Source of the DNA: Nodosilinea sp. | GTDB lineage: Bacteria; Cyanobacteriota; Cyanobacteriia; Phormidesmidales; Phormidesmidaceae | Assembly: GCA_040396995.1 (NCBI GenBank) | Contig: JBBAWV010000001.1 | Location: 35,258 to 99,257 of the forward strand | Reading direction: 5' to 3' | DNA length: 64,000 bases | Part shown: positions 7,553-41,926 of the stretch, in pieces | How positions within the stretch are numbered: position 1 is the stretch's first letter | Layout of the letters: every line of letters starts with the position of its first letter | Notes under the pieces: model-generated | The model's database searches: none | Told to the model about the DNA's origin: nothing | Seen by the model: only the letters and a program-made list of their open reading frames with translations | Made by a program: the position numbers and the translations under genes

Positions 7553-7558
7553 ATGAGC

Positions 7559-25554: not shown

Positions 25555-25620
25555 GGGCGAGGAGACTCGCCCCTACGGTTTGCTGGGCTGGGAATCGGGG
25601 TTATTCGATTAGGATTTGGT
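25555..25620 (-). repeat. REP-like element (GTAG + GGGCGAGG/CCTCGCCC hairpin + 44-bp tail)
   Basis: 66/67 identical to the reverse complement of 41831-41897. Confidence 0.92.
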
Positions 25621-25646
25621 ATTACTAAAGAGGCTGACAGCTGGTT

Positions 25647-25782
25647 GCCTGACACATCTCCAAAGTAGGTTGGGTGCAGCAAAGCGGAACCCAACACTTA
25701 CCGAGAATTTTGGGCTTGTTGGGTTTTGCTATCGCGCCACCCAACCTACGAGAAATCAAGGCTTTTCAGCGTTGTGTCAGGC
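25647..25782 (+). mobile_element. REPIN-like doublet (25665-25749) inside 10-bp inverted repeats GCCTGACACA/TGTGTCAGGC; MITE-like
   Basis: GTAGGTTGGG...CCCAACCTAC; 25665-25780 is about 90% identical (11 mismatches/116) to 26261-26376. Confidence 0.8.
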
Positions 25783-25801
25783 AGTCAGGGCTAATAATTC
25801 C

Positions 25802-26143
25802 TTGGATGAAAAAGTACCTGTTCTATATTATGCAGTCAGATCTCACTCTGATGAGAAAGTAAAGGTAATGTTGGAATCCGGTGCTACGTGGGATCAGCTA
25901 TCTCAAGAACAACTAGATGATGCTTTGCAAGGGGCGTCTTGTGATGGTTATTTGTTCACCGTTGAAGAACTGTTGAACGCAGGAGCAAATCCCAATAGCT
26001 CTAATGATCACAATGAGACTCCGCTGTTATTAGCTCAAGATGCTACTTGTAGGACAGTTGACGGTGACGGAGGGAGAATTGTCGATGAACGTCAGCATAA
26101 TGAAGTTGCAAATTTATTGAGAGAGAAGGGAGCACTTCAATAA
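25802..26143 (+). pseudogene. Ankyrin-repeat protein, probably 5'-truncated
   Basis: VLYYAV, ELLNAGANPNSSNDHNETPLLLA, VANLLREKGA. The ORF-track N-terminus (25616-25801) is repeat DNA. About 40% GC. Confidence 0.65.
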
Positions 26144-26151
26144 AAGGGGAC

Positions 26152-26227
26152 GTAGGATTGACGAGCGAAGCAGAATCCTCACTGGACAAGGATTGGGATG
26201 CGTTACGCTGTCGCTAACACATCCTAC
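26152..26227 (+). repeat. REPIN-like doublet GTAGGATTG...CATCCTAC
   Basis: Two GTAG-led hairpins in inverted orientation. Confidence 0.75.
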
Positions 26228-26260
26228 GAACTTTGCAAATTTTTCAAGGATTTAGCGCTC

Positions 26261-26376: not shown

Positions 26377-26415
26377 TCAGATGGGCGGCTCTGGTTGAAG
26401 CTGAGCCTCTCTATT

Positions 26416-27009
26416 TCACGAACCGGAGTTGGGTTTCCGGCGCTGGCTGAGCAGATACCCCAGGGCTCCGGGCATGGCCAGCAGGGTAATCAAAATTGTG
26501 GTCGAAACACTGAGGCGGCTGGAGAGGGTGCGGGCCGGGTCTAGGCCATCCACAATGAAGCGCCCGGTGACGATGACGGCATAGAGGCTGACGGTGACGG
26601 CACTGAGGCTAGAAATAAAGTCTTTGAGGGTGGGCAGGTGGGCCTGGGGGATGCGGCGACCCAGCAGGATTCCAGAGATAAATCCCGCCAGGGCTTGGCC
26701 CACCACCACAATCAGCCGCAGTTGGATACTAATCGGCTCTTTTTCGGCGGCCAGATGTCCGGCCATGATGCCGCCCAGGCCGATGATCATCCCCGCAATC
26801 GCCCCCACCCCAATCCACCAGTGGATCGGCTTGGAGAGGTAGGAGCAGGCCACAATTAAACTGGCCAACCCCAGGGAACTGGCCACGGCGGCCTGACCCA
26901 GGGGCAACTGGGTAATGATCACCAGGGTCAGGGCCACCCCAACCCCGGTACCGAGCAGTAGTGGCAGCGATTGTCTGAGGCCAGAAATTTTGGGGTAGTT
27001 TTGAATCAT
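26416..27009 (-). CDS. Hypothetical integral membrane protein
   Basis: About 5-6 hydrophobic segments; start moved to MIQNYPK. Confidence 0.7.
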   Translation of the reverse strand: MIQNYPKISGLRQSLPLLLGTGVGVALTLVIITQLPLGQAAVASSLGLASLIVACSYLSKPIHWWIGVGAIAGMIIGLGGIMAGHLAAEKEPISIQLRLIVVVGQALAGFISGILLGRRIPQAHLPTLKDFISSLSAVTVSLYAVIVTGRFIVDGLDPARTLSSRLSVSTTILITLLAMPGALGYLLSQRRKPNSGS

Positions 27010-27016
27010 GGTGAGC

Positions 27017-27190
27017 TCAAACCTGTTGAATAGCTGGGGGTGTCCATCGGCCATCCAACACCTCGGATTTGGGTGCATAGAGGCCCATGGTAATGTCCAA
27101 GCTGCCCTAATCGGGGGAGGTGAACTAGTTGGATGCCCGGTTCGGCGACTTGGCTTGGATGGAGAGGTCGAGGGAGCCGTTCGCGCCCTC
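27017..27190 (-). pseudogene. Degenerate 3' remnant of a DUF1254/DUF1214 gene
   Basis: ANGSLDLSIQAKSPNRASN*FTSPD*GSLDITMGLYAPKSEVLDGRWTPPAIQQV* aligns by eye with the C-terminus of 36312-37649; two in-frame stops. Confidence 0.75.
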
Positions 27191-27824
27191 AAGCGACGCA
27201 CGACTTGGCCATTGGAATCCTCATGTAGTATTGCTCAAATTCATCTCCTACGGCATAAATTGTTTGATCTGGGCCAAGATCCATGACCAGATCCTCGGTC
27301 AAAATGCGGGTGCGGTATTCCCAGCCATCGGGCAGTTTTAGTTGATCGGCAAGGCTGGCGAGCGACTCCATTGAGAACTCCTTACCATGAGCTTGCATAA
27401 CGTAACTGTTGCCGTCGGGATCGATGAGTTCGTAAACAGCCCTGCCCTTGGCGTAAACCATTGTCTGAGTTTTTTTCGGAGTAAAAACGGTGTAAGGTGC
27501 GGTTCCATGGGACTGTTTCCCAACGAGAGCCGCGTCTAGCGTAGCCGCCCACCGGGCTTCAAGTCCTCCAAACGAAACCGTCTCTCCGAAAGAAAGGGTT
27601 TGGGAATCCATCATCCAGAACTTAGGGCCGTTTAGTTGGACGGCTTGGGCATCAAACTGGGTTTTAATGGCCTCTAGATCAAGGGCATCCCAGAGCTGGA
27701 GAGGACAGTCGTTTAAACCCGTAGTGTTGTAGATTTCAATGTCAACTCCCTTAACCAGAAAAATCTCACCGAAACGCAAATCCCGTGTTTCAGTAACCGT
27801 CACTTCAGTCAGAATTCTATCCAT
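27189..27824 (-). CDS. Hypothetical protein (211 aa)
   Basis: Good ORF, RBS GGAG, globular composition (YNTTGLNDCP, NGPKFWMMD, YELIDPDGNSYVMQ); no family name recognised. Confidence 0.75.
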   Translation of the reverse strand: MDRILTEVTVTETRDLRFGEIFLVKGVDIEIYNTTGLNDCPLQLWDALDLEAIKTQFDAQAVQLNGPKFWMMDSQTLSFGETVSFGGLEARWAATLDAALVGKQSHGTAPYTVFTPKKTQTMVYAKGRAVYELIDPDGNSYVMQAHGKEFSMESLASLADQLKLPDGWEYRTRILTEDLVMDLGPDQTIYAVGDEFEQYYMRIPMAKSCVA

Positions 27825-27931
27825 TATGTTCTCCGAACTTATGGTTTATTGGGTTGGACTAGATTTTTGGTTGAGATTCGATCAGTTCTAGAAGGAATCA
27901 AAGGAGGGTGTAACCCAGGCTTATTAGCCAC

Positions 27932-29365
27932 CTAGATTTGGGTGCCCTTGGCCTCAAATTCTTCCTTGGTTGTGTAATACCCCTGAGGGTAGTAAGGCCC
28001 CATAATGGCTTCCTCCAGGCTAGGTTGAGAGATCTTGTCAGGGCTTTGCAGCCAACTGGGATGATTACCCATCATCCGCATAATCAGCATGCCAAAGTCG
28101 GGACGGTTCCTAGGATCATCGAGTCCTTCACCGAGCGGACTCCATTCGACCCATGCCACGCCATTTTCGAGTGTCGCATTCTTCGGCTTATCTTCCTGGC
28201 GGCTGACCACAATCGTATAATTGCGATCTCCATCCAGAGGCACCTGCATATCAGTCACGCCATCTACAACGCGGCCAGAGGGAGGGGCCTCGCAACTGAC
28301 GAGCGACCAGTACTGAGTTTGTGCTTCTGGCATCACTTCCAGACCCTTACCCTCTGCACCCGCGTAAGTATTCGGGAAAATCGGCATCTTGCCTCGGACG
28401 ACATAGACCGAACCGAACTGACGCGAGAGATAGGTCAGCAGATAGGGCCCATCGCCGCCCCCCTCCATTGCCCCAGCGTAAGGAATTTTTGCCCGTTCTT
28501 CTGGTGTTTTGAACGCGCCAACCACCGAATATCTGATTGTCCAGAATTTCTCCCACGTTGGTACCTGGCGTGCGGGTGCCGTCGCAGGGTCAAGTTCGGG
28601 GTCGTTGTCCTCGGCCTGAACCAGCTTTACCCATTGTTCGGCGGTCAACGGCGGCTGGGTATTCTCTTCCATTTTCTGCACAAACTGCCTGACAAACTCC
28701 TCCGATGACAAACGGGTGCCATCGGCGAGGGTGACTTCGTAGCTCGGCAGCCCTGGTCCGTTGAAGGGCGATAATGCCGTACCCCATCCGGCCCCGTCTC
28801 TGCCCTGATCGGCTAGATAGATGCGAATCGCCATCTGGATCTTTTTACCGTCCCTGCCCACGTATAGCGTGTTGGGCTTACGGTCTTTGGGTTCGATTGG
28901 CGGAGCCTCGGCTAGAATTCGTAGCGTGAAGTTTCGTGGCTCGGCGAGACGGTCAGCACCGACCAAAAACGGATTGCTGGAGCCGGGATCTGGCTCGATC
29001 TCCTGCCCAGTGAATGCCTCGCCGATAGAAACATAGGTATCGCGTTCTTCTCTATATAACGCAAACTGGAAGTAGCGCACATGGGGATAGGTGGCCCGTA
29101 AAGTCAGGGTACTCCCAGCCGGCATGGTCAACTGACTTAAGAAGAAAGTCGATGCCATATCTGGCCAAAGGTTGGGATTTTGGAACGGTTTTGGCTGGGC
29201 CAGATAGTTCCAGTAGTGCCACCCACGCGGCCCTTGGAATAGGCTGTCACTGCCGTAGCGCTCGTCGGTGCGGATGACGGCTTCCATCGATAGATTGCCA
29301 TAGCGTTCGGCAGTCTTGGCTAGATCCTTGTTGTTGCTAGTAAAAGCCGTTTCCATAACGCTCAT
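27932..29365 (-). CDS. Hypothetical protein, possibly DUF1214-related
   Basis: QNPNLWPD, YPHVRYFQFALY, PDPGSSNPF, QYWSLVSC, VPLDGDRNYTIVVS; start moved from 29758. Confidence 0.7.
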   Translation of the reverse strand: MSVMETAFTSNNKDLAKTAERYGNLSMEAVIRTDERYGSDSLFQGPRGWHYWNYLAQPKPFQNPNLWPDMASTFFLSQLTMPAGSTLTLRATYPHVRYFQFALYREERDTYVSIGEAFTGQEIEPDPGSSNPFLVGADRLAEPRNFTLRILAEAPPIEPKDRKPNTLYVGRDGKKIQMAIRIYLADQGRDGAGWGTALSPFNGPGLPSYEVTLADGTRLSSEEFVRQFVQKMEENTQPPLTAEQWVKLVQAEDNDPELDPATAPARQVPTWEKFWTIRYSVVGAFKTPEERAKIPYAGAMEGGGDGPYLLTYLSRQFGSVYVVRGKMPIFPNTYAGAEGKGLEVMPEAQTQYWSLVSCEAPPSGRVVDGVTDMQVPLDGDRNYTIVVSRQEDKPKNATLENGVAWVEWSPLGEGLDDPRNRPDFGMLIMRMMGNHPSWLQSPDKISQPSLEEAIMGPYYPQGYYTTKEEFEAKGTQI

Positions 29366-29435
29366 TGGTAGGGAATAAAAGCTGGACTTGAAACCGCAGG
29401 GTAAAATCACCGGCGTTATCGGGTCTGACCGCATT

Positions 29436-29479
29436 CCAGTACAACGGCTAATCATCTTGCTGATCAGCCGTTGTACTGG
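29436..29479. terminator. Perfect 14-bp hairpin CCAGTACAACGGCT/AGCCGTTGTACTGG
   Basis: Just downstream of the 29485 stop on the minus strand; no U-tract, so terminator or processing/stability hairpin. Confidence 0.5.
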
Positions 29480-29484
29480 CTTGG

Positions 29485-30813
29485 CTAAACTCGCTGCAGG
29501 GCGGGGGCTTGCCAGGTGCCGTCGAGGGCTTCGGCCTGGGGCCAATAGAGCCGCATGGCACAGAAGAATGGCCCTGTCGGAGCCGGGAGCCAGTTGGCCT
29601 CTAGATCTGCACCGGGGGATTCGGGCTGGATGTAGAAGGTGAGCCCGCCATCGGCATCGCACTGGAACTGGGGCAGCATGGGCGAGTTGAGCAGGTAGCG
29701 GTTGAGCGGATTGGCCACCAACAGACTGGAGGGTAGTTCGTACATCGTCAACGACCAAAAGGCATTCACGGGGGGCAGTTGATCCGCCGCGAAGTGAAGC
29801 GTGTAACGGTTTGCTCCACTCAAGGGCTGGCCCTCGCCATCCACGGTGTAGAAGGGATACATCGCCTCCTGCTTGGAGTTGCCAAAGATACCCAGTACCG
29901 CGCCCGCCATGCGGTAGAGGTAGTTGTTCTGCAAATAGTCGCGGGTGCCGAACAGATCGCTGGGGGTTACTTGTCCGGCATCAACCTGTTTTTTCAAGGC
30001 GGCAAATTCGGCCCAGGCATCGGCCATGCCCTGGGTCATCGCTTCCTGCACCTCGGAAGAAAGGGTATCCGCTACGAAGCCCTGCCCTGTCCCTACGCCA
30101 ATCTGGGCAAACCGGGAGCGCAGATCCACCTCGGAGGGCACCGGGGGACAACATTGCAGCAGAAAATCCAAAATGCCGAAAAACCCTAGGGAGGTCTTTT
30201 GGGTATCGGGCGTGAGGGGCGGCACAAACTCAATCGCTGGGGCACTTTCCGGAGCCGATTGACCCAAAAATTCTGAAAGTGGCTGTAGCTGGTAGCTGGC
30301 CTGAATTTCCTTCACCCGGTCGAGATCGTCAGGGCTAAACAGTTGGGTGCGATAGATCGCCAGGACAAACTCGGTTTCGGCACGAATCACTTTGCTCACG
30401 CCGCTGGGGGTCTCGCCTTGCCAACTGGGGCCAGCAATCACAAAAACACCGCCGCCATTGCCCGTCGTGCGGCTCCCGATGTACTCAAAATTGAACGTAT
30501 ACAAATCCACCAACTGGATGCTGAAATAGCGATTCGCCTCTAGCGCTGGCACGGTGAGCACCATTGGCTCTGTCCGCAAATCTAGCCCCGCCATGGAGTA
30601 GGGCGTGTCGGAGTTAGGTGTCTGGACGGCCTTATCCTCTGGCGTAAATACCCGTGCAATGTTGCGCAGGTGGTTCCAAGACGCTTTGTACTCAGGGTTT
30701 TGGGTATCGACAAAGTAGGCGTGCTGGATGCGGTAGCTATCGACCATAGGATAGCCGTAAATATAGGCTTCCTTCGCGATAGCGCGGGCTTCTACGGGGC
30801 TAGTGGTTGGCAT
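29485..30813 (-). CDS. DUF1254/DUF1214 domain protein
   Basis: AKEAYIYGYPMV, TPNSDTPYS, LDLRTEPMVL, YFSIQLVD, PPVNAFWSLTMY, NWLPAP, MRLYWP; RBS AAGGAG. Confidence 0.9.
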   Translation of the reverse strand: MPTTSPVEARAIAKEAYIYGYPMVDSYRIQHAYFVDTQNPEYKASWNHLRNIARVFTPEDKAVQTPNSDTPYSMAGLDLRTEPMVLTVPALEANRYFSIQLVDLYTFNFEYIGSRTTGNGGGVFVIAGPSWQGETPSGVSKVIRAETEFVLAIYRTQLFSPDDLDRVKEIQASYQLQPLSEFLGQSAPESAPAIEFVPPLTPDTQKTSLGFFGILDFLLQCCPPVPSEVDLRSRFAQIGVGTGQGFVADTLSSEVQEAMTQGMADAWAEFAALKKQVDAGQVTPSDLFGTRDYLQNNYLYRMAGAVLGIFGNSKQEAMYPFYTVDGEGQPLSGANRYTLHFAADQLPPVNAFWSLTMYELPSSLLVANPLNRYLLNSPMLPQFQCDADGGLTFYIQPESPGADLEANWLPAPTGPFFCAMRLYWPQAEALDGTWQAPALQRV

Positions 30814-30838
30814 CGGGGTTCTCCTTGAGGGCAAAGGT

Positions 30839-31498
30839 CTAACTGCCGAGAATATTGATGGCGCGGGAGACCACGACCAGAATGGTGGCCAGGGAAATGC
30901 TACTTTCGAGCATCATCCACAGCTTGGCCCGTGTCGTTAGTGGTAGGGCATCGGTGGGGCTAAAGGCGGCGGCGGTGGTGTAGGCCAAAAACAGGTAGTC
31001 CACATAGGTGGGTCGCCAGTGGGGCATCAGATCTTCGAGATCGGCTTGGGGAAAGAGCCAATCGGGAGCCTGAGTCTGGGGTTTTAGTCGGGCTTCGGGG
31101 CCACCCCGATCAATCTGCCAGTACAGCAGGGAGAATAGCAGCACGTTGTCAATCCACACGGTGAGGCTAGAGGTTAGCAGTTGCAGCCCACCCAGATCGG
31201 TGGAGTGGTTGATCATCTCGTCGATCAGGTAGACCAGGCTGATCAGCGTACCCACCCCAACGATCAGGCAAAACAACAGGAGCGTGAGGCGCTCGATGCG
31301 CAAAGCACGCGCCTTGCCCCCCGACAGTGGCACCAGGGCCAGGGCCACCAGCATGATGAACCCCAGCAGATAGGGTACCCCCACGGGCACCAGCCGAATG
31401 CGATCCGGCAGCACCGTCAGCAGCACCAGCACCACCCCAATGGTCAGAGCCACGGGCCAGCGCGGTTCAAGGGTTGGGGGCGGTGGGGCGGGCTGCAT
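30839..31498 (-). CDS. DUF1345-family membrane protein
   Basis: NVLLFSLLYWQID, PDWLFPQ, WRPTYVDYLFLAYT..AFSPTD..LT..AK..MMLES. Confidence 0.8.
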   Translation of the reverse strand: MQPAPPPPTLEPRWPVALTIGVVLVLLTVLPDRIRLVPVGVPYLLGFIMLVALALVPLSGGKARALRIERLTLLLFCLIVGVGTLISLVYLIDEMINHSTDLGGLQLLTSSLTVWIDNVLLFSLLYWQIDRGGPEARLKPQTQAPDWLFPQADLEDLMPHWRPTYVDYLFLAYTTAAAFSPTDALPLTTRAKLWMMLESSISLATILVVVSRAINILGS

Positions 31499-31528
31499 AG
31501 CTGTTAAGCTCCTGTTTTCTGCAAAACC

Positions 31529-31843
31529 CTAGTCCACATACACCACCACATACTGGGTGCCGTAGGGCTGGTAGTAGGTGCCACCACAGGAGTAGAGGGA
31601 AACCCCGTCGATGTAGACCGTGCTACAGCCCACGGGCAGGGTGGTGGCGTAGATGGCCGATCGACGGATCACCCGCCGCGTGGTGCGCCGAGCTGCTCCT
31701 GCCACGCTCACCGGGGTGGCGGGCCGCCCCACAATCGCCGCCGCTGGCTGCATTACCAGCTTGCCGCCCCACAGTCCATCGGTCACCGCGCCCGCCGCCA
31801 GTAGGCCACAGGCTCCAATCATCAAACGCTGCATTAAGTTCAT
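31529..31843 (-). CDS. Small secreted Arg-rich protein (DUF6515-like, uncertain), paralog 2
   Basis: Signal-like N-terminus ending PAAA; GRPATPVSVAGAARRTTRRVIRR; LPVGC...YSCGGTYYQP...YVVVYVD; RBS GGAGG. Confidence 0.8.
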   Translation of the reverse strand: MNLMQRLMIGACGLLAAGAVTDGLWGGKLVMQPAAAIVGRPATPVSVAGAARRTTRRVIRRSAIYATTLPVGCSTVYIDGVSLYSCGGTYYQPYGTQYVVVYVD

Positions 31844-31870
31844 GGCTCAAACCTCCAAGGTTGAGGGTCG

Positions 31871-32212
31871 TTAATCCACATACACCACGACGTATTGGTT
31901 GTTGTAGGGCTCGTAGTAGGTGCCACCACAGGAGTAGAGGCTTGTCCCTTCGATCACCACGGTGGTACATCCCACGGGCAGACTGGCGACGTAGACAGTG
32001 GAACGCCGAATTACCCGTCGGGTGGTGCGTCGGGCGGTTCCGGCGACGCTGACGGGGGTGGCGGGTCTACCCACCACAGCCTCAGCCCGCTGGGTGACTA
32101 GGAGGCGGCTGTTAAACAGGCCATCGGCCACGGCACTCACCGCCAGCAGGGCCACGGTGCCTACCATTACGGACTTCACAGATTTCACAGATTTCATCGA
32201 TTGCCTTGGCAT
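31871..32212 (-). CDS. Small secreted Arg-rich protein (DUF6515-like, uncertain), paralog 1
   Basis: Same motifs; start overlaps the DUF2092 stop (TAATG); ORF-track extension to 32434 is unlikely. Confidence 0.8.
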   Translation of the reverse strand: MPRQSMKSVKSVKSVMVGTVALLAVSAVADGLFNSRLLVTQRAEAVVGRPATPVSVAGTARRTTRRVIRRSTVYVASLPVGCTTVVIEGTSLYSCGGTYYEPYNNQYVVVYVD

Positions 32213-33003
32213 TATTGGGCCTCCTGATAGTCTTCGAGTTCGCTGGGGGGCAGAGCTTCCAGCAGGGTGGCTCCGGCGGGGGGGGTAAAGGTGAAGCGGT
32301 TGGCGGGAATCTGGGGGCTGGTGTTCCAGTCGCGCAGACGAATGGAATATTCCGGCGCACCCGTTACCCATTTGGTGGTGATCACATACTTCATAGGTAG
32401 GGGGACATCCCCGGTTTGCACCCAGATTTGCCAATCCACATCAGCTTCGCGGAAGGCCAGGTGATGCACTTCCACGCCATCGATGTAGGCCGTGCCCAGG
32501 TAAAGGCTGCTCTCCACCCCTTCCATCAGCACCTCGTAGGGGTTGCTAAACATTAAATCTGCCCCCGGAAAGGGCAGGCCCGTCTCGGCTTCCATGGTGA
32601 GAATGGCATCGTCGATGGTGCCGCTGAGGGGGATGTTGGCATAGGCGTTAATCCGCCGCCCAAAAATAGTGATCTGGTTGCCGTTGAAGAAAACTTCGGC
32701 ATCGGCCAGTGGCCCCTGCCGCTGCAAAAAGAACCCCGTGGGCCGCTGCATTACCATGGAGGCATAGCTGCTGAATTGCAGTTTTTGACCACTTCTAGCC
32801 ACCACTTCAAAATCAATATCGGCGTTGACGCTAAAGGCTTCGGTTTCCGCCAGGTAGTCTGACATAAATTGCAGAACTTCCGTGGCGTTGGGGTCTAGCT
32901 CTTGGGCCTGGGCCGACATCGGCGCGATGGCCCCCACCGTAAGGGCCATACCGAGGGCGAGGGAGACTCCGCCGATGGGGTTTAGAAAATAGTTGTTGTT
33001 CAT
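32212..33003 (-). CDS. DUF2092 periplasmic protein
   Basis: Signal peptide ending AQA; MSDYLA, GQKLQFS, HHLAFRE.DVDWQIWV.TGD.PLP.KYVIT. Confidence 0.85.
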   Translation of the reverse strand: MNNNYFLNPIGGVSLALGMALTVGAIAPMSAQAQELDPNATEVLQFMSDYLAETEAFSVNADIDFEVVARSGQKLQFSSYASMVMQRPTGFFLQRQGPLADAEVFFNGNQITIFGRRINAYANIPLSGTIDDAILTMEAETGLPFPGADLMFSNPYEVLMEGVESSLYLGTAYIDGVEVHHLAFREADVDWQIWVQTGDVPLPMKYVITTKWVTGAPEYSIRLRDWNTSPQIPANRFTFTPPAGATLLEALPPSELEDYQEAQ

Positions 33004-33038
33004 CGTTATGCTCGTTAAGGAAAGATGATGAGGGCTTT

Positions 33039-33071
33039 AGATCCCTGGGTTCTTCGAGAACCCAGGGATCT
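33039..33071. repeat. 15-bp-arm palindrome AGATCCCTGGGTTCT-TCG-AGAACCCAGGGATCT
   Basis: Perfect arms; followed by a degenerate extra unit. Confidence 0.9.
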
Positions 33072-33125
33072 GGGAGAAGAAACCGGGGTTCTGGGAGACC
33101 CCTTAAAATTGAAAGGGCCGGGGTA

Positions 33126-33785: not shown

Positions 33786-33834
33786 GATCCCAGGGTTCTT
33801 GAGATCCCAGGGTTCTTCAAGAACCCTGGGATCT
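33770..33834. repeat. Tandem GATCCCAGGGTTCTTGA units ending in palindrome AGATCCCAGGGTTCT-TCA-AGAACCCTGGGATCT (33802-33834)
   Basis: Same family as 33039-33071; supplies the Uma2 stop codon. Confidence 0.9.
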
Positions 33835-33841
33835 AACGCTC

Positions 33842-36214
33842 CTACTGCCGTGCCATGGCCACCCGCAGCCGCTCGTCGGGCGAAATTAGGTGGTCGTGGT
33901 CGTCCTTGCCCACATCCAACTGCACCCAGTGGAGTTTGCCCGTGAACTTGCTGCTGTGGGCGCTGTAGTCGGGGGTGACGCAGGTGCCCGACTCGTAGCC
34001 GATGTCGGTGGTTTCATCCGCCGAGAAAATCATCGGCTGGGTGGCCTCGACCCGACCCGACCCGACGGGCTGACCATCGTAGTAGAGGTTCACATTGCCG
34101 CCCTTGGCCAAGCCGCCGCCATCGTAGGCAAACTCCATTCGCACCTGGTGCTTGCCCTGGGGAATGGGAGCCGTCGCCTCGGTGTAAAACTCCTGAATGC
34201 CCAGCACGTTGTAGACAAACTTGAGCTTGCCCTCCTTGGTGTAGACGCTCCAGCCACCGAACTTGCCGCCTTGGGCGATGATCACGCCCTCGGCAGGTTT
34301 GTCCGCCTTAATTTCCACCTCGGCGGTGATGGAGAAGGACTTGTTCTTGATGTTAATGACGCTGTTTTCCGACAGACGGCCCATGCCCGCAAAGAAAATT
34401 TGCGAATCTCCCTTCACCAGGGAGGGACGACCAGCGGTGGTGGGGTCGATGCGCTCGGTCTGGCGATCATCCAGGGGCAGCACGTTGTACTTCACGGCTT
34501 CAATCAAAAACTGGCGCTGAAGTTCAAGCAGTTTCTCTGGCATCTCCTGGGCCAGGTTGTGGAATTGCGTCCAGTCTTTGCTGCCGTCGTAGAGTTCCCA
34601 CACGTCTTGATCAAAGGGCGGCATGGTTTGACCCACCATCACCCAGGGGGTGCGGTGCTTGGTGATGGCGCTCCAGCCCTTGTAGTAGATGCCCCGGTTG
34701 CCAAACATCTCAAAGTATTGGATTTCGTGGCGTTCCGGCGCATTGGCCTCGTTAAAGCTGTAGACCATGCTGGTGCCCTCGTAGGGGCTTTGCAGCACGC
34801 CGTTTACCATCGTCGGCTCAGGAATACCCGCGACTTCCAGGACTGTAGGAGCCACGTCAATCACATGGCTAAACTGGTGCCGGATGCCACCCTTGTCTTG
34901 AATCCCCTTGGGATAGCGGACGATGGTGCCGTTGCGGGTGCCGCCCCAGTGGGAGGCCACTTGCTTCGTCCATTGGTAGGGCGTATCCATGGCCCAGGCC
35001 CAGCCCACAGCATAGTGGTTGTAGGAATCGGGGCCGCCAAATTCCTCCAGTTTGGACTGCATGAATTCCGGGGTTTCTAGCCCTGCCATGCCGTTGAAGT
35101 TGGCCATTTCGTTGAAGGCTCCGTGGATGGTGCCCTCGGCGGATGCGCCATTGTCGCCGATGATCACGTAGATCAGGGTGTCGTCCAGAATTTCCAGATC
35201 CTCTAGGGCGTCAATCACCTGCCCCACGGCGTAGTCGGTGTGCTCCAGGAACCCGGCGTAGACCTCCATCTGCCGCTCTAGCACCGGCTTGTAGGCGGCA
35301 TCCATCTCATCCCAGGCGGGAATTTCGGCATGGCGGGGGGTGAGTTCGGCATCGGGGCCAATCACGCCCAGTTCCTTCTGCTTGGCAAAGGTGATCTCCC
35401 GCTGGCGATCCCAGCCGTGGGCAAATTGACCTTTGTATTTATCAGCCCATTCCTTCGGCACATGGTGCGGTGCGTGGGTGGCACCGGGGGCAAAGTACAT
35501 AAAGAAGGGCTTGTCGGGCATGAGCGCCTTTTGCTGGCTGATCCAGCCAATTGCCTTCTCCGCCAAATCCTCGGTCAGGTGGTAGCCCTCCTCAAAGGTG
35601 GCGGGGGGCTCGATGGGGGTGGTGCCTTCGTAGAGGGCCGGATCCCACTGGTTGTTTTCGCCGCCAATGAAGCCATAGAAATACTCGAAACCGCCGCCCC
35701 CGGTGGGCCACGCATCAAACGGCCCCATCGGCGAGGTCTGCCATACGGGCACCTCGTGGCACTTGCCCAGCATGGCGGTGGAGTAGCCGTTCAGCTTTAG
35801 GGTCAACGGGAGGGGCGCTTTGGTGTTGGGCCGCACCGAGCATTGCCCTGGTGCGGCGGTGGCGGTTTCGGTGATGTTGCCCATGCCCACCGAGTGGTGG
35901 TTGCGCCCGGTCAACAACGCCTGCCGGGTGGGGGCACAGAGGGCGGTGGTGTGGAAACGGGTGTACTTCAGCCCTTGTCCGGCTAGCTTCTCGAAGGTTG
36001 GCGTATGGCAAGGCCCACCAAAGGCGCTAGAGGCTCCAAAGCCCACATCATCCAGCAGCACCACCAACACGTTGGGGGCATCCGCTGGCGGACGCAGATC
36101 GCGAATCGGGGGATATTTCGTATCGGGATCCTTGGCATCGTAGGTGGTAATGCCAAAGTGGGTTTGGTCGGGAATGGGCAGAATCTGTCTTGGCACCGTG
36201 TGGTTTGAAGTCAT
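33842..36214 (-). CDS. Arylsulfatase (Cys-type, formylglycine-dependent), no signal peptide
   Basis: PNVLVVLLDDVGFG, ALCAPTRQALLTGRNHH (CxPxR), GKCHE, IGDNGAS, HQFSHVIDVAPT. Confidence 0.95.
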   Translation of the reverse strand: MTSNHTVPRQILPIPDQTHFGITTYDAKDPDTKYPPIRDLRPPADAPNVLVVLLDDVGFGASSAFGGPCHTPTFEKLAGQGLKYTRFHTTALCAPTRQALLTGRNHHSVGMGNITETATAAPGQCSVRPNTKAPLPLTLKLNGYSTAMLGKCHEVPVWQTSPMGPFDAWPTGGGGFEYFYGFIGGENNQWDPALYEGTTPIEPPATFEEGYHLTEDLAEKAIGWISQQKALMPDKPFFMYFAPGATHAPHHVPKEWADKYKGQFAHGWDRQREITFAKQKELGVIGPDAELTPRHAEIPAWDEMDAAYKPVLERQMEVYAGFLEHTDYAVGQVIDALEDLEILDDTLIYVIIGDNGASAEGTIHGAFNEMANFNGMAGLETPEFMQSKLEEFGGPDSYNHYAVGWAWAMDTPYQWTKQVASHWGGTRNGTIVRYPKGIQDKGGIRHQFSHVIDVAPTVLEVAGIPEPTMVNGVLQSPYEGTSMVYSFNEANAPERHEIQYFEMFGNRGIYYKGWSAITKHRTPWVMVGQTMPPFDQDVWELYDGSKDWTQFHNLAQEMPEKLLELQRQFLIEAVKYNVLPLDDRQTERIDPTTAGRPSLVKGDSQIFFAGMGRLSENSVINIKNKSFSITAEVEIKADKPAEGVIIAQGGKFGGWSVYTKEGKLKFVYNVLGIQEFYTEATAPIPQGKHQVRMEFAYDGGGLAKGGNVNLYYDGQPVGSGRVEATQPMIFSADETTDIGYESGTCVTPDYSAHSSKFTGKLHWVQLDVGKDDHDHLISPDERLRVAMARQ

Positions 36215-36311
36215 TGTTAGTGTTCCTTATTGTTGTTTGCTAACTCAGGTCGCGAAACCATGCAACGGCGTGAGACAGGCCCCACTGAGCGACGATGGCA
36301 CAACCCTTGGG

Positions 36312-37649
36312 CTATCGCTTCTTGACCGCCGGGGGCACCCAGCGACCATCGAGCGCTTCTGCTTTGGGGGCATAGAGGCGCATCGTTACCCCCAGTGCCC
36401 CTTGGGCCGGGGAGGGTAGCCAGTTCGAGACCTTGTCGGCACCGGGCGACTCGTGCTGAATGTAAATATCGAGGGAACCATCGGCGTTGTAGGTGAGGTC
36501 ATCACGATCCCCAATGGCGAAGCGATCCAAGGGGTTCGCGACCTGAAAGCCCTCGGCGTCGTACATGGTGATCGACCAAAAGGCCTCCACTGGGGGGAGT
36601 TCCGCTTTTTCAAAGTGCAGCACGTAGCTGTGGGTGCCATCCATCGGTTGGCCATCGGCATCGACCACATTCAGCGGATAGATCGCATCCTGGGGCTGGT
36701 TGGCACCGAGGCCAACCATGGCCACGATGGCCCGCTTCAGGTAGTAGTTGCCGTAAACCCCCATGGTGTCGGTGTTCATCTGCCAGCCGTTGACCACCTT
36801 GGCCAGGGTGGGCAGCTTTTCGACCATCAGCTTGAGGCCGTCTACCACAGCCCGATTGAGGCCCGCTTGCACGGCGGGATCGGCGCTGTTTAGGTCAAAG
36901 CTTTCGCCCACCACAATTCCTAGACGGCCCAGGCGGGCAATGGTAGACCAGTCGGTGATGTGGGGCGGGTGGATCTTCATCAGGTCTGCCCCGTAGCCAA
37001 AGTACTGGGCAGCGGTCATGGTGTTGACCTGCTGCAAGGGCGGCGTCTTCATGTCTACGCTGGGGTCTATGACCGCTGCCGCAGGCTCGACGGGCTTGCC
37101 CCACTGGGACAGCGGTGTCACCCGATAACCATCCTGCACCTGGTGAACCGCTGCGTAGTCTTGGGGGCCATTGGTCTGGGTGCGCCCGATGACCCACAAA
37201 TAGGCGGTGGGGGCTTGGATGGCTTCCACCCCGGCGGGCAGTTGCCCCTGCCACCCCGGCGGCACAATGGCATAGTTGGCGGCACTGGTACCGCTGGTGC
37301 GCTTGCCAGGAACCGCAAACACGTCAGACCACATATTGAGCATGGGCAGCAGATAGTAGCGCCCGTCGGTATCGGGGGCCGATACGATCATGGGTTCCTG
37401 GGTCAGGTCGAGCCAGAGGCTAGAGTAGAGGGTGTCGAAGTTGGGCCGCACCACCTCGCGGAAATCGGCGGTCGGAAAGGCTCGCATGTGGTGAAAGGCA
37501 TTCATCGGCCCCATACCGGGCTTGGCATCGGCGGCATAGTTGGTGGTAATGCGCCGGGTCACGTCCATCGTGATCAGCGGGTACAGGTATTGGTAAGCCT
37601 CAATCCCGATCTCGTAGGCGGTTTGTTCGTTAATCATGGAATTCTCCAT
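36312..37649 (-). CDS. DUF1254/DUF1214 domain protein
   Basis: EAYQYLYPL, RPNFDTLYSSLWLDL.QEP, YYLLPML, PPVEAFWSITMY, NWLPSP, MRLYAP. Confidence 0.9.
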   Translation of the reverse strand: MENSMINEQTAYEIGIEAYQYLYPLITMDVTRRITTNYAADAKPGMGPMNAFHHMRAFPTADFREVVRPNFDTLYSSLWLDLTQEPMIVSAPDTDGRYYLLPMLNMWSDVFAVPGKRTSGTSAANYAIVPPGWQGQLPAGVEAIQAPTAYLWVIGRTQTNGPQDYAAVHQVQDGYRVTPLSQWGKPVEPAAAVIDPSVDMKTPPLQQVNTMTAAQYFGYGADLMKIHPPHITDWSTIARLGRLGIVVGESFDLNSADPAVQAGLNRAVVDGLKLMVEKLPTLAKVVNGWQMNTDTMGVYGNYYLKRAIVAMVGLGANQPQDAIYPLNVVDADGQPMDGTHSYVLHFEKAELPPVEAFWSITMYDAEGFQVANPLDRFAIGDRDDLTYNADGSLDIYIQHESPGADKVSNWLPSPAQGALGVTMRLYAPKAEALDGRWVPPAVKKR

Positions 37650-37867
37650 CGTTTTTGAACGGTCGGAGGTGGGTCAGGTCATTGGTCTATCGGTGATGCT
37701 TGCCGATGATGGCCTCTAGGCGGCGTTACCTAGCCCTTGATCCAGTAGCCCAGACGAAAAAGGGCGGAGCGCAAACGGCTTGTTTCCGGTGGGCAGGGGA
37801 TAGCCGATCCCACCCCCTATCCCTCCCAAGCCCAGGCATTCAGCCTCCACCTCCGCCCCATCGCCCC

Positions 37868-39202
37868 TTAAAAGCGGAAGCCAATATTGACGTAGGGGCC
37901 ATGCTGATCGACGTTGATGTCAACCAGGTTCGCGTTGTAGTCGGTGAAACCGAAGCGATACCCCGCCCCCAGGGTGGTGTTGCCGGAGAACATCCAATCA
38001 ACCCCGCCCTGGATGCCGTACTGCATCAGGCCACTAATGCCAAAGCCAGAGATAGTACCCATTCCGACTACGGCTAACTTAGGGTTGGCATTCCAGCGCA
38101 CCCGCCCGCCAATCAACGGCGATACGACGGTGCGACTGTTGTTAAACTGGCCCGATCCACCCAAATTGGTGCTCAACCCAAGCCGGGTATTCACTTGGGT
38201 TAAGCTCAGGCCACCCAAGGCATCAAACACAAACGGCCCTAGGTCGAACTCGGAAAGAACACCCTCCGGGTTCACTCGCGCTGGATCATAAAAGCGGTAG
38301 CTGCCCACTAGGTCGGCACGCATCAGTTGGGTCGTTAGACCTGCATTAATTTGGGTGGGAACGAAGGCCGCAGCACCTGGAATGCGCACATCCCGGTTGA
38401 TGGTGCTATCCGTGGATAGGGAAATGTAGTCGAAATTGCCAACAACGCCCCATTTATAGTTTGGGTTCCAGGCTTCAAATCCGCTAAGAAAGGCAAAATT
38501 TAGGCTATTGCGCAGCGCTGTTGTAATCTGGCTGGGGCTAAAGTCAAAGTCGCGGCTAGGATTACTAAAATCTCCAACGAAATCATCCCTGAAACCTTCA
38601 CCCTGAAAGGTGGCTGAGCCCGAAATACTAAAGGGAAGATAGATATAGGGCGCGAGCAAAAAGTGCCATTTATCCGACTGGGACGATTCCGAGGTCGTTT
38701 GGGCCACATCAAGGGACTGGCCGAGGGGCGTTTGGAGGAAGTCCTCACTCGCGAGGGAAGCCTCCGTCCGTTGCAGATCGCGGCTGGTGGTGGAGATCGG
38801 CAGCAAGGGATCCTCCGCCACCAGCGAATCCGCCGCTTGGGTCTCGTCGTTGGGGACAGCACTAGGGTGAGTCTCAGGATGAATGGCCTCTCCAGCGGTG
38901 GCATCAGCCGTCTGGGGCGATTCAGTAACCTGGGCTTCCGAAGGCATCGCGTCCGCTGAGAGGATGGCGGATGACTCATCCTCAGCCATTCCCTCAGCCC
39001 CTTCCATCGACATTTCCTCAGAAACCTCAGCCTCGACCACCGCTTCTAGAACGACCTCTGGCAAGGGTTCCAGACTGGTAGATGGGTCGTTGCCCCCCTC
39101 CAGAGAGGGAAGTGCGCTGGCTGGGGCGGGCAACAGCAGCGCGATGGCGGCGAGGGTACTCAGGCTCATTAATCCAGTTTTATCGTTCATCGAAGTGCTC
39201 AT
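37868..39202 (-). CDS. Putative outer-membrane beta-barrel protein with long acidic N-terminal extension
   Basis: Signal-like LAAIALLLPAPASA; Glu/Ser-rich linker; amphipathic strands (WHFLLAPYIYLP, LIGGRVRW, LGAGYR); C-terminal YVNIGFRF; start uncertain. Confidence 0.7.
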   Translation of the reverse strand: MSTSMNDKTGLMSLSTLAAIALLLPAPASALPSLEGGNDPSTSLEPLPEVVLEAVVEAEVSEEMSMEGAEGMAEDESSAILSADAMPSEAQVTESPQTADATAGEAIHPETHPSAVPNDETQAADSLVAEDPLLPISTTSRDLQRTEASLASEDFLQTPLGQSLDVAQTTSESSQSDKWHFLLAPYIYLPFSISGSATFQGEGFRDDFVGDFSNPSRDFDFSPSQITTALRNSLNFAFLSGFEAWNPNYKWGVVGNFDYISLSTDSTINRDVRIPGAAAFVPTQINAGLTTQLMRADLVGSYRFYDPARVNPEGVLSEFDLGPFVFDALGGLSLTQVNTRLGLSTNLGGSGQFNNSRTVVSPLIGGRVRWNANPKLAVVGMGTISGFGISGLMQYGIQGGVDWMFSGNTTLGAGYRFGFTDYNANLVDINVDQHGPYVNIGFRF

Positions 39203-39245
39203 CACAATCAGGTGTTGTTCAACGTCTCTATCCCCATCGCTGGGT

Positions 39246-40127
39246 CTAAGCCTCCGGTGCATCCTGGGGCTGTGCGCCCTGGGCCAGTTGCTTTTGGTAG
39301 AGATGCGTGTAGATTTTAGCGGCAATGCCCGAGATCACCGCGTAGGAGGCAATGGTGATTAGCACCTCATGGGCCACCGTCGGAAAGTTGAGGGTAATCA
39401 ACGCCAGGGCTAGACCTGCATTGCGCGATCCATTGGCCATCGCTAGGGTTTGCCGCACCACCGGGTCTGTACCCGCCAGGTAGTGGCCACTCACCAGCCC
39501 CGCCGCCGCCATTAGCACCACCGCCAAGATGGGCAAGGGGCCAGCCTTGAGCACCAGCGACAGCCCCATCACCACCACCAGCAACACCACCCCGATCAGC
39601 ATGGCGCTGCTGATGCGGTTAAGGGGTTCGCTAAACTCCTCCGTTAAATCGGGCAACCAATGGGCTATGGCCGCCCCCACCAACAGCGGGAGGCCCTGCA
39701 CCGCCATGATTTGCTTAAACACTACCGCCAGCGGAGCCTCGGCCCCAATGGGGTAGATCGCCGTAATAATGCCAAACCACAGGGGCACCAGCACCACCGA
39801 CAGCAGTGCCATCGTGGCCTGAAAACTGCCCGCCAGTTCCGCATCCCCTGGCCCCTTCAGCATTTTGCGATAGATCACCGGAGCCCCTGGGATCACCGCC
39901 ATGGCCGCAATGCCCGCCCGCACCTCAAAGGTCAGGGGCAGCACCTTCGTCACCACCATGGCCGCTAGGGGCACCAACACAAAGGCCGCCACAATGCACC
40001 GCGCCAGCAACGCCGGACTGCGCCACAGACGACTGATGCCCGCAAACCCCAAGGCCATCCCCATGGACAGCATGACGGCAAACAGGGTGAGCTGGGCAAA
40101 ACTGCTGAGCAATTCCTTCAAATCCAT
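39246..40127 (-). CDS. Bile acid:sodium symporter (BASS/SBF) family transporter
   Basis: VMLSMGM, FVLVPL, PGAP, LLSVVLVPLW, ANGSRNAGLAL. Confidence 0.85.
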   Translation of the reverse strand: MDLKELLSSFAQLTLFAVMLSMGMALGFAGISRLWRSPALLARCIVAAFVLVPLAAMVVTKVLPLTFEVRAGIAAMAVIPGAPVIYRKMLKGPGDAELAGSFQATMALLSVVLVPLWFGIITAIYPIGAEAPLAVVFKQIMAVQGLPLLVGAAIAHWLPDLTEEFSEPLNRISSAMLIGVVLLVVVMGLSLVLKAGPLPILAVVLMAAAGLVSGHYLAGTDPVVRQTLAMANGSRNAGLALALITLNFPTVAHEVLITIASYAVISGIAAKIYTHLYQKQLAQGAQPQDAPEA

Positions 40128-40742
40128 CTTATGATCACCCCTCTCAATAAGCGGTTAACCCAAACAGCGAGCCAATTATCCTAGTTCGCCACTCCAAACA
40201 GAGATACCTTAAACAAAGCGTTACAACCGTGCGTTTAACCCTAAGATTAACGGCGACAAGAAGAATATATCGGCAAAGATCTAGCTTTTCTTAATATTTA
40301 GATGATTTTCTTCAAGTGGCTTTATAGATTGCTCAACCCATCAAGAAGTTGCTTCTATTTACCACGGCTTTAACAATCCTTAAAGATGCGCTAAAATTGG
40401 TAAGCCGATGACTTCTTGGTGGCTTTGCTGGCAAGGCGCATCCATGTCTTCTAGGCCTTTACTCCAAGGGTTTAAGCTTACTTCCACATCAGGAAACTCG
40501 ATAGCATCTGTGAATCTAGTAGCAATAAGAACCTCAAAAAAATAAAATGCACTTAGTAAATGTTGTCCTTTCAACAAGTCACATTACGAGCCATTCTTCA
40601 GTAATACCATCTGAAATTCTGAAGTTCTGGTCATTTCGCGCCAACCTGACTAAGAATATTTAATTCTTTGATACCCTAGGGGAGATGGCATCTACCTAAG
40701 CTAAAGCCTTGTCCCCCTTGGATCCCTTGCTCCACAGCCGCA

Positions 40743-41759
40743 ATGAAATCCATCCCCCTGATTAGAGTTGGTCTGCTGCTGCCCGTTGTGGAATTTCTTG
40801 ACCACATCGGCTCACCTACAGATCGTCTGTTAGCGCAAGTGAACCTGTCGCCAGCGGTCTTAGAACATTCAGACCGTCTGCTAACGCTCTATCAGGGAGT
40901 TGCCCTAGCCGAAAAGGCAGCGGCTTTGGAGGGCCTGGAGACCTTAGGGTTTCTGGTCGGCGGCCAGACTCCACTACCTCGGCTAGGCAGCTTAGGCAAA
41001 ATTGTGCACCATTCCCTCTCCCTGTTCGATTTGCTAACCACCCTTGAGCAGGTGTTAGGCATGGCCAATTCGGGCCAACAGGTGAACCTGCGATGGGATG
41101 GCGACTGGGTTTGGTGGCAGTTTAATTGCCAAAGCCCAGGTCAGATCAGCAACCTACAAAATCATCGCTACGACCTTGGTCTTTATCTCAATGCGCTGCG
41201 CCAGGTGCTAGGGCCAGATTGGCGACCCACCGAGGTGCACCTCAAGGGGCCACACTGCCAAGCTATGGTGGATTTGGACGATTTTGCGGGCACCACGATG
41301 CACTTTTTGCGCCCCTGCAATGCCATCAAAATCCCTCGATCCGCCCTGAGCTTGCCCTACAACCCCAAGGCCAAGGGGACGGATCTCCACAGCCACCCCG
41401 ACTACGACCGCTTTCAGCAAACGGCCCCCGCCCAAACCTTCTTCGACTCGTTGCAGCAGTGCATTCAGGCCCAGTTGCCCTTCGGCTGTCCTGATATCAC
41501 CCTGATAGCCTCTGCTTCGGGACTCAGTGTGCGAACCCTGCAACGACACCTAGGCGAAACGGGGCTAACCTACTCCAAATTGGTGGATCAGGTGCGGTTT
41601 AACCAAGCCGTGGCGCTGCTTCGGCAATCCGATACCAAACTGTTGGACATTGCCACTGAGCTAGGCTACACCGACCCCGCCAACTTTGGTCGTGCCTTTC
41701 GCCGCTGGGCGGGCATGTCCCCCAGAGAATTTCGCGCCACCTATCAACGCCAAGGGTAA
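40743..41759 (+). CDS. AraC-family transcriptional regulator (N-terminal ligand-binding domain, VirS/OruR-like)
   Basis: C-terminal SVRTLQRHL.E.GL.YS.LVDQVRF...IATELGY.DPANF.RAFRRW.G.SP.EFR. Confidence 0.92.
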   Translation: MKSIPLIRVGLLLPVVEFLDHIGSPTDRLLAQVNLSPAVLEHSDRLLTLYQGVALAEKAAALEGLETLGFLVGGQTPLPRLGSLGKIVHHSLSLFDLLTTLEQVLGMANSGQQVNLRWDGDWVWWQFNCQSPGQISNLQNHRYDLGLYLNALRQVLGPDWRPTEVHLKGPHCQAMVDLDDFAGTTMHFLRPCNAIKIPRSALSLPYNPKAKGTDLHSHPDYDRFQQTAPAQTFFDSLQQCIQAQLPFGCPDITLIASASGLSVRTLQRHLGETGLTYSKLVDQVRFNQAVALLRQSDTKLLDIATELGYTDPANFGRAFRRWAGMSPREFRATYQRQG

Positions 41760-41830
41760 ACGCCCCTTATACACTGGCCGCGATGACCTGGATGCCCCTG
41801 AAAGCAGATACTTCACCGTTGCTGACTCAC

Positions 41831-41926
41831 ACCAAATCCTAATCGAATAACCCCGATTCCCAGCCCAGCAAACCGTAGGGGCGAGGTCTCCTCGCCCGCT
41901 GATACCGGGGGCAAACAAGTCGGATT
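41831..41926 (+). repeat. REP-like element (tail + GTAG + hairpin + GCTGATACCGGGGG extension)
   Basis: Inverted copy of 25555-25620; extension shared with 7523-7552. Confidence 0.92.

What the first reader, a model, noticed from the sequence alone, without database searches (positions are those of the whole stretch)
25555..41897. 16.3-kb accessory island bounded by near-identical inverted REP-type repeats, with no transposase or integrase
25555-25620 and 41831-41897 are reverse complements at 66/67 nt. They sit just outside the ankyrin fragment on the left and 71 bp after the AraC stop on the right, enclosing the whole sulfatase cluster. Each has a GTAG-led hairpin pointing outward. GTAG-hairpin REPs are substrates of RAYT/HUH nucleases (established). 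Acquisition, mobilisation or inversion of cargo through these ends is inference. No TSD is visible, and a third degenerate copy exists at 7500, so chance is possible.
Basis: partly seen in the sequence, partly recalled or inferred. Interest (0 to 1): 0.7.

Follow-up and report, generated by a model that had tools for sequence, protein, structure and literature searches.

The report
Common genome repeat flanking sulfatase cluster
The two near-identical inverted repeats are real, but they are just two of several hundred copies of a small hairpin repeat scattered through this cyanobacterium's genome, so they happen to sit either side of a horizontally acquired sulfatase gene cluster and are not its mobile ends.

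Summary
25566-25620 and 41831-41885 are 55/55 reverse complements, 66/67 over 25555-25620 and 41831-41897, and each carries a GTAG-led GC hairpin at its outer end.

The interpretation as island termini does not hold.
- The arms belong to a ~100-nt palindromic REP/MITE-like element. The right arm is full length (41828-41931). The left arm is truncated at the hairpin. A third partial copy lies at 7495-7553.
- Summed contig depth in four lake and freshwater metagenomes is 300-1000 times the unique flanks, which implies a few hundred copies per genome at 95% identity or more.
- The closest genome, Phormidium sp. FACHB-1136, has 4 copies in the 52 kb I hold. One is 100% identical over 89 nt at an unrelated locus. 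Two lie inverted 17.6 kb apart.
- Synteny with FACHB-1136 ends at the nadE start codon (about 25015), 540 nt before the left arm. The REC-GGDEF-EAL gene beyond the right arm is also missing there.

The enclosed AraC, SBF, sulfatase, DUF1254/DUF1214 and DUF2092 cluster does look horizontally acquired. Its sulfatase is 95% identical in a Spirulina MAG. The DNA shared with that MAG spans only 26442-40118, and none of the other hosts carries the repeat.

Verdict: a new member of the known GTAG-REP kind next to an ordinary accessory cluster. Low interest.

The parts
41828..41931 (+). Full-length copy (~100 nt) of the dispersed palindromic element. It has outer stem CAAATCC/GGATTTG, middle stem CCCCG/CGGGG, and an apical GTAG + GGGCGAGG-TCT-CCTCGCCC hairpin. 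It lies between the convergent stops of AraC (41759) and REC-PAS-GGDEF-EAL (41940).
   Evidence: nhmmer 41825-41933, E 7e-33; folds (z about -3); summed depth 2800-15700x against 9-16x flanks.
25555..25626 (-). Truncated copy of the same element: the 5' half plus the GTAG hairpin. It lacks the 3' GCTGATACCGGGGGCAAACAAG..GGATT part. It lies in the nadE upstream intergenic region.
   Evidence: profile positions 3-75 only; summed depth 2300-6100x against 5-15x flanks.
7495..7553 (+). Third, partial and degenerate copy: hairpin with a 5-nt deletion plus the 3' half.
   Evidence: (D10, D12).
26416..41759 (.). Accessory gene cluster. It holds a 212-aa membrane protein, unknown 211-aa and 474-aa proteins, DUF1254/DUF1214 (twice), a 219-aa protein, DUF6515-like paralogues, DUF2092, Uma2, a 790-aa sulfatase with a LamG-like C-terminus, a 440-aa putative outer-membrane protein, an SBF transporter and a divergent AraC regulator.
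   Evidence: Pfam and NCBIfam; gene calls on Logan contigs; the same cluster in L291, a Spirulina MAG, with 26442-40118 similar at DNA level.
25665..25749 (+). REPIN-like doublet of a second GTAG repeat family (GTAGGTTGGGT...ACCCAAC, two inverted units). A second copy lies at 26261-26345. Both sit just inside the left arm and flank the ankyrin fragment.
   Evidence: searches (D2, 120 nt, 90%; long hairpin, z -4.6), summed depth 270-2500x against about 5-16x flanks.
23235..24989 (-). nadE (glutamine-dependent NAD synthetase). It is the last gene syntenic with Phormidium sp. FACHB-1136. Synteny ends within about 25 nt upstream of its ATG.
41940..44132 (-). REC-PAS-GGDEF-EAL gene, the last gene of an HK-REC-GGDEF/EAL operon. 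It has no orthologue in FACHB-1136 (best hit 50%) and is 63-65% identical in more distant Nodosilinea.

Best explanation
The two arms are independent copies, one full and one truncated, of a lineage-specific ~100-nt palindromic REP/MITE-like element. Its apex is a GTAG-tagged GC-rich hairpin. The element is scattered through the intergenic DNA of this Nodosilinea-like cyanobacterium at roughly one copy per 13-20 kb, a few hundred per genome. At that density, two neighbouring copies 16 kb apart in opposite orientation are expected by chance.

The DNA between them holds an AraC-regulated sulfatase, DUF1254/DUF1214, DUF2092 and SBF cluster that was probably acquired horizontally. The repeats belong to the host genome, not to the cluster.

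Shown:
- the anatomy of the repeat
- its abundance
- its presence at unrelated loci
- its absence from the cluster in other hosts
- boundaries that do not match the arms

Inferred:
- The element spreads through a RAYT-type (Y1/HUH) nuclease acting in trans on the single-stranded hairpin.
- It may act as an RNA or DNA structural element downstream of genes.
For: - Abundance. In four metagenomes from different studies, summed contig depth on the element is 2800-15700x against 9-16x on unique flanks. The ratio is similar in every run. Many contigs run from the element into unrelated flanks. Logan contigs break 28 nt into the repeat.
- Copies elsewhere. FACHB-1136 has copies downstream of an alaS-like gene (L001) and three in L094. 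Two of those are inverted and 17.6 kb apart.
- Family homogeneity. The right arm is 100% identical over 89 nt to the L001 copy, while genes of the two genomes are only 88-91% identical. Near-identity is therefore a property of the family, not of this pair.
- Unequal arms. One is a full element and the other is truncated at the hairpin.
- Boundaries. Synteny with FACHB-1136 ends at about 25015. DNA homology with the L291 cluster spans 26442-40118.
- Absence in other hosts. L287-L291, which carry the sulfatase cluster, have no copy of the element.
- Known kind. GTAG-tagged REPs are described in cyanobacteria and lie mostly downstream of ORFs (PMC3733652). The same hairpin motif gave at least 120 hits in varied metagenomes. 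Ten of those loci carry Y1_Tnp (RAYT-like) ORFs.
Against: - The copy number comes from summed k-mer depth of metagenome contigs. Overlapping unitigs can inflate it about twofold, and related organisms in the same samples could add to it.
- The window's own complete genome was not available, so no exact count was made.
- No RAYT gene was located for this organism.
- Short-read contigs break at the repeat, so rare inversion or excision cannot be excluded.
- No relative with an intact empty site was found, so how the cluster arrived is unknown.
Confidence: 0.85

Rival explanations
1. One reading: the 16.3-kb segment is a composite mobile island. Its inverted REP-type ends are cut and joined by a RAYT/HUH nuclease supplied in trans, which moves or delivered the cargo.
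For: The inverted arms are 66/67 identical, with GTAG hairpins at their outer ends. The cargo is accessory and lacks its own mobility gene. GTAG hairpins of this type lie next to Y1_Tnp ORFs in metagenomes.
Against: - There are hundreds of equally similar copies.
- The arms are unequal, one full and one truncated.
- No target-site duplication is visible.
- Boundaries in FACHB-1136 and in the L291 cluster do not coincide with the arms.
- The cluster in four other cyanobacterial hosts lacks the element.
- From my own knowledge, not tested here: RAYTs are not known to move multi-kb cargo.
Confidence: 0.04
2. The two arms act as substrates for RecA-dependent homologous recombination. The 16-kb segment would then invert at low frequency, or have been inverted, flipping the cluster relative to nadE and the GGDEF operon.
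For: 55 nt of perfect inverted identity is long enough for rare homologous recombination; that step is inference. The left junction is a variable nest of repeats, and 25811-26160 is missing in the strains of runs X3-X5.
Against: JGI contigs L084 and L085 read from AraC into or through the right element in the window's orientation, though L085 reaches only about 10 nt of unique flank beyond it. No strand-changing joints were seen at the arms, although k-mer contigs cannot span the repeat. No relative shows the inverted order.
Confidence: 0.08
3. The conserved repeats served as homology anchors. The cluster would have entered by recombination with DNA from a related strain that already carried it between the same two element copies.
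For: The element is more conserved between species than genes are: 100% over 89 nt against about 90%. Strains in runs X3 and X4 that differ by about 2-4% carry the cluster.
Against: No donor or recipient allele was found. Homology with the closest genome already ends at nadE, outside the left arm. 55-100 nt anchors are short.
Confidence: 0.03

Closest known systems
GTAG-tagged REPs (repetitive extragenic palindromes) associated with RAYT / TnpA-REP Y1 HUH nucleases; cyanobacterial families GTAG-12, -15 and -16 of Di Nocera et al. 2013 (PMC3733652)
   Same: GTAG tetranucleotide directly 5' of a short GC-rich imperfect palindrome. Copy number in the hundreds. Intergenic position, mostly just downstream of genes. 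Several GTAG families coexist in one genome: here the GGGCGAG hairpin, the GTAGGTTGGGT doublets and the GTAGGATTG doublets.
   Different: The hairpin is not free-standing and not arranged as a simple REP doublet. It forms the apex of a ~100-nt element whose two flanks pair with each other. Truncated halves are also abundant. The cognate RAYT was not found with the data available. The sequence differs from the published cyanobacterial families, which were described in Nostocales and Cyanothece.
REPINs (REP doublets forming hairpins; Bertels and Rainey 2011, PMC3116915) and bacterial MITEs such as Nezha, ERIC and NEMIS/Correia
   Same: About 100 nt and non-coding. The whole unit folds into one long imperfect hairpin with terminal inverted repeats. 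It is highly homogeneous within a lineage, which suggests recent spread.
   Different: There is only one GTAG unit per element, not two inverted REPs. The neighbouring GTAGGTTGGGT family at 25665-25749 does have the REPIN layout. No clear target-site duplication and no parent IS were identified.
Composite transposons and integrative genomic islands
   Same: An accessory gene cluster of patchy phylogenetic distribution lying between inverted repeats.
   Different: No transposase or integrase, and no direct repeats or attachment sites. The nearby tRNA-Leu is separated from the cluster by syntenic nadE. The flanking repeats are generic host repeats and are absent from the cluster in other hosts.

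Membership tests
GTAG-tagged REP (RAYT-associated) | Short (20-40 nt) imperfect palindrome tagged at one end by GTAG | tested here: met
   GTAG + GGGCGAG(G)-loop-(C)CTCGCCC in both arms. The stem is predicted in the DNA and RNA folds.
GTAG-tagged REP (RAYT-associated) | High copy number (over 100 per genome), dispersed | tested here: met
   Depth ratio 300-1000x in four metagenomes. 4 copies in 52 kb of FACHB-1136 and 3 in this 64-kb window. Caveat: this is an estimate from k-mer depth, not a count on a finished genome.
GTAG-tagged REP (RAYT-associated) | Extragenic, typically downstream of ORFs | tested here: met
   The right copy lies between convergent stop codons. The 7495 copy lies in an apparently non-coding stretch after a TAG at about 7427. 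The L001 copy lies about 5 nt after the stop of an alaS-like gene. The left copy is in the nadE upstream spacer. The L094 copies were not checked.
GTAG-tagged REP (RAYT-associated) | A cognate RAYT (Y1_Tnp) gene in the same genome, usually flanked by the REPs | not testable with these tools
The window has no Y1_Tnp ORF. Indirect support: 10 of 120 metagenome loci with the same hairpin motif carry RAYT-like ORFs, and one was confirmed as PF01797.
REPIN / BIME | Two REPs in inverted orientation at a fixed short spacing | tested here: not met
   The element has a single GTAG hairpin at its apex. The criterion is met by the separate family at 25665-25749 and 26261-26345.
MITE | 70-300 bp, non-coding, terminal inverted repeats | tested here: met
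   About 100 nt, with ends (AT)ACCAAATCC ... GGATTTG(GTAT) that pair in the fold.
MITE | Target-site duplication, and a parent IS with the same ends | tested here: inconclusive
   No consistent duplication appears in the seven aligned copies. A parent IS was not searched for genome-wide.
Composite transposon / mobile genomic island | Terminal repeats specific to the element, delimiting a unit that is present or absent as a whole | tested here: not met
   The repeats are generic. Breakpoints in relatives are at about 25015 and at 26442/40118, not at the arms.
Composite transposon / mobile genomic island | Encoded transposase, integrase or recombinase, or attachment at a tRNA | tested here: not met
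   No such domain in Pfam or NCBIfam scans of the ORFs. tRNA-Leu at 23085-23166 lies beyond syntenic nadE.

The most novel reading that the evidence does not exclude
The ~100-nt GTAG-hairpin element is an actively spreading family in this clade, kept 100% identical across species. Its inverted copies might then mediate inversion or inter-strain exchange of the DNA between them. The sulfatase cluster would be one cassette shuffled through recombination at these repeats.
Probability: 0.06. Interest if true: 0.5.

Novelty: new member of a known kind. Interest (0 to 1): 0.15.

Why it matters
For the scan, this shows that a striking 66/67 inverted pair around an accessory cluster can be a by-product of a REP-rich genome. 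It should not be read as a mobile-element boundary.

The positive result is modest. A very abundant, unusually homogeneous hybrid of REP and MITE in Nodosilinea-like freshwater cyanobacteria adds a member to the GTAG-REP kind. It could be useful for strain typing, or for studying RAYT-driven repeat spread in cyanobacteria.

The sulfatase cluster is a clear case of gene-cluster exchange among distant cyanobacteria.

Tried and rejected
- **Empty or inverted alleles.** nadE loci of 80 genomes and REC-GGDEF-EAL loci of 80 genomes never show nadE next to GGDEF, or any island gene next to either. The ancestral arrangement could not be reconstructed.
- **Exact-protein look-ups.** Look-ups for nadE (start 24989), GGDEF (start 44117) and the 197-aa form of the 26416 gene found nothing. 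The 211-aa gene gave only the window's own strain. No metagenome contig crossing the left arm was obtained.
- **tRNA-Leu as an integration site.** Rejected, because nadE lies between it and the cluster and is syntenic in FACHB-1136.
- **Known RNA family, terminator or promoter.** No Rfam match even at E up to 1, and no terminator or promoter consensus at the right copy.
- **Joints reported by read laying.** The joints 25070>26260, 25622>33802 and 25768>41833 are best explained by other loci where the same multi-copy repeats lie next to each other. Their short sides are only 26-36 nt and fall in high-depth repeats. I rejected them as evidence of deletion or excision.
- **Base composition.** Island GC equals flank GC (0.57). 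Tetranucleotide distance is only mildly raised, 0.116-0.12 against 0.07-0.09. This is not decisive either way.
Full report
**Observation**

The inverted repeat is real. The repeat finder gives arms 25566-25620 and 41831-41885, 55 nt and 100% complementary. blastn extends this to 66/67 for 25555-25620 against 41831-41897. The one difference is a 1-nt indel in the hairpin loop.

GTAGGGGCGAG-N3-7-CTCGCCC occurs exactly twice in the window, once in each arm on opposite strands. None was expected in shuffles. The hairpins lie at the outer ends of the arms. The degenerate third copy is at 7495-7553.

**Anatomy of the repeat**

The right copy does not stop at 41897. It shares a further 30 nt (GCTGATACCGGGGGCAAACAAG..GGATT) with the 7500 copy and with copies in another genome.

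The full unit, 41828-41931, folds into one long imperfect hairpin (z about -3):
- outer stem CAAATCC/GGATTTG
- middle stem CCCCG/CGGGG
- apical hairpin GGGCGAGG-TCT-CCTCGCCC, preceded by GTAG

The left arm is a copy truncated exactly at the end of the hairpin. The 7500 copy lacks the 5' half. The two 'ends' of the proposed island are therefore not equivalent.

No Rfam family matches the element. It has no terminator or promoter consensus.

**Organism and relatives**

NadE and GcpE place the window in a Nodosilinea-like cyanobacterium. The closest genome is Phormidium sp. FACHB-1136, with NadE 94% and GcpE 98% identical at protein level and 88-91% DNA identity over window 12554-25015. The window's own genome is not in the genome collection. 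It does occur in many lake and freshwater metagenomes.

**Copy number**

| Evidence | Result |
|---|---|
| Unique flanks, Logan contigs of four metagenomes | 9-16x |
| Right element, summed depth | 2800-15700x |
| Left arm, summed depth | 2300-6100x |
| FACHB-1136, 52 kb held | 4 copies |
| This window, 64 kb | 3 copies (2 near-identical, 1 partial) |

- The depth ratio is 300-1000 and stays similar in runs whose coverage of the organism differs about twofold.
- Dozens of contigs run from the element into unrelated sequence.
- Contigs carrying the identical AraC gene break 28 nt into the repeat.
- Overlapping unitigs may inflate the depth about twofold. Allowing for that, this still means a few hundred copies at 95% identity or more.
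- The FACHB-1136 copies comprise one just downstream of an alaS-like gene and three in L094. Two of the L094 copies are inverted and 17.6 kb apart.
- Together these give a density of one copy per 13-20 kb.
- The right arm is 100% identical over 89 nt to the alaS-side copy of FACHB-1136, although the two genomes differ by about 10% in genes. Near-identity is therefore a property of the family and says nothing special about this pair.
- Other Nodosilinea loci and all the sulfatase loci hold no copy.

**Is it REP-type?**

Yes, in the sense of Di Nocera et al. 2013 (PMC3733652). That paper describes GTAG-tagged palindromes, including families in cyanobacteria, that lie mostly downstream of ORFs.

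Ten of those loci carry RAYT-like ORFs. One of them matches Pfam Y1_Tnp above its cut-off. In two of these loci (L180, L186) the hairpin lies inside the ORF, between the HUH motif and the C-terminal part.

Two further GTAG families lie just inside the left arm. REPIN-like doublets sit at 25665-25749 and 26261-26345. A GTAGGATTG doublet sits at 26152-26228. Both are multi-copy by depth.

I could not look for a RAYT gene in this organism.

**The 'island'**

The interval holds these genes:
- an ankyrin fragment
- several proteins of unknown function
- two DUF1254/DUF1214 proteins
- DUF2092
- Uma2
- a 790-aa sulfatase
- a putative outer-membrane protein
- an SBF transporter
- a divergent AraC regulator

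It holds no transposase or integrase.

The sulfatase's closest relatives are as follows:

| Relative | Protein identity |
|---|---|
| Spirulina MAG (L291) | 95% |
| A Leptolyngbyaceae MAG, Planktothrix PCC 9631, [Phormidium] LEGE 05292 | 88-89% |
| Rhizobium MAG, Chloroflexi, Actinobacteria | 73-83% |
| Nodosilinea relatives | not detected |

L291 carries almost the whole cluster. In Planktothrix the gene has 52% GC against flanks of 36-42%. Horizontal acquisition of the cluster is therefore well supported.

**Boundaries**

- Synteny with FACHB-1136 ends within about 25 nt of the nadE start codon, at about 25015. That is 540 nt left of the left arm.
- The REC-PAS-GGDEF-EAL gene just outside the right arm has no orthologue in FACHB-1136. 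The best hit there is 50%, against 63-65% in more distant Nodosilinea, where the HK-REC-GGDEF/EAL operon is conserved.
- DNA similarity to the L291 cluster covers only 26442-40118.
- No relative has nadE beside GGDEF, or the island in inverted order.
- None of these limits coincides with 25555 or 41897.

**Conclusion**

The arms are two of several hundred copies of a host-specific REP/MITE-like element. At that density, an inverted neighbouring pair 16 kb apart is expected. They sit either side of an ordinary horizontally acquired cluster without defining it.

Rare recombination between the 55-nt arms cannot be excluded with k-mer contigs. JGI contigs read into or through the right element in the window's orientation, and one reaches about 10 nt of flank beyond it.

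Noticed in passing
window 25665-25749 and 26261-26345 (plus 26152-26228): Two further GTAG-tagged repeat families, arranged as inverted doublets (REPIN-like long hairpins), lie just inside the left arm. They flank the ankyrin fragment and are multi-copy by metagenome depth.
   Followed up: partly
window 25811-26160: The ankyrin-repeat fragment has zero or near-zero contig depth in three of four metagenomes (X3-X5) that otherwise carry the locus. This stretch between the two REPIN-like copies varies between strains.
   Followed up: partly
window 33842-36214; loci L287-L366: The 790-aa sulfatase with a LamG-like C-terminus is unusually conserved across phyla: 95% in a Spirulina MAG and 73-83% in Chloroflexi, Actinobacteria and a Rhizobium MAG. 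Its GC content is discordant with its flanks in Planktothrix, which suggests wide horizontal spread.
   Followed up: partly
L180 about 1307-1336, L186 about 772-799 (metagenome loci): The GTAG-GGGCGAG hairpin lies inside RAYT-like (Y1_Tnp) ORFs, between the HUH motif (MPNHVHGII / MPNHVHCIL) and the C-terminal half, where it encodes peptides such as VGARHRLAP and RRGEVASPL. Ten of 120 hairpin loci carry such ORFs.
   Followed up: partly
window 33786-33834: Between the Uma2 and sulfatase stop codons lies about 2.5 tandem copies of an 18-nt unit, followed by a perfect palindrome CCCAGGGTTCTTCAAGAACCCTGGG. Depth is mildly raised there and contigs break at 33834.
   Followed up: no
window 25011-25071: A 55-60-nt stretch directly upstream of the nadE start is about 10-fold over-represented in metagenome depth. 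It coincides with the point where synteny with FACHB-1136 ends.
   Followed up: no
window 31530-31759 and 31872-32101: A 230-nt direct repeat at 75% identity. It reflects two adjacent paralogous small genes (104 aa, and 187 aa with weak DUF6515 similarity) within the cluster.
   Followed up: no
window 52361-52487 and 49278-49341: Short tandem arrays with a 16-nt period: T-rich units at about 52.4 kb and ACTCTGTCGCCTGAGA units at about 49.3 kb.
   Followed up: no
window 33126-33785, 27932-29356, 27189-27824: Uma2 (a putative restriction-endonuclease-like protein) and two genes of unknown function are present in the window's cluster but absent from the otherwise collinear Spirulina MAG cluster. 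The order of the sulfatase and DUF1254b genes is also swapped.
   Followed up: no
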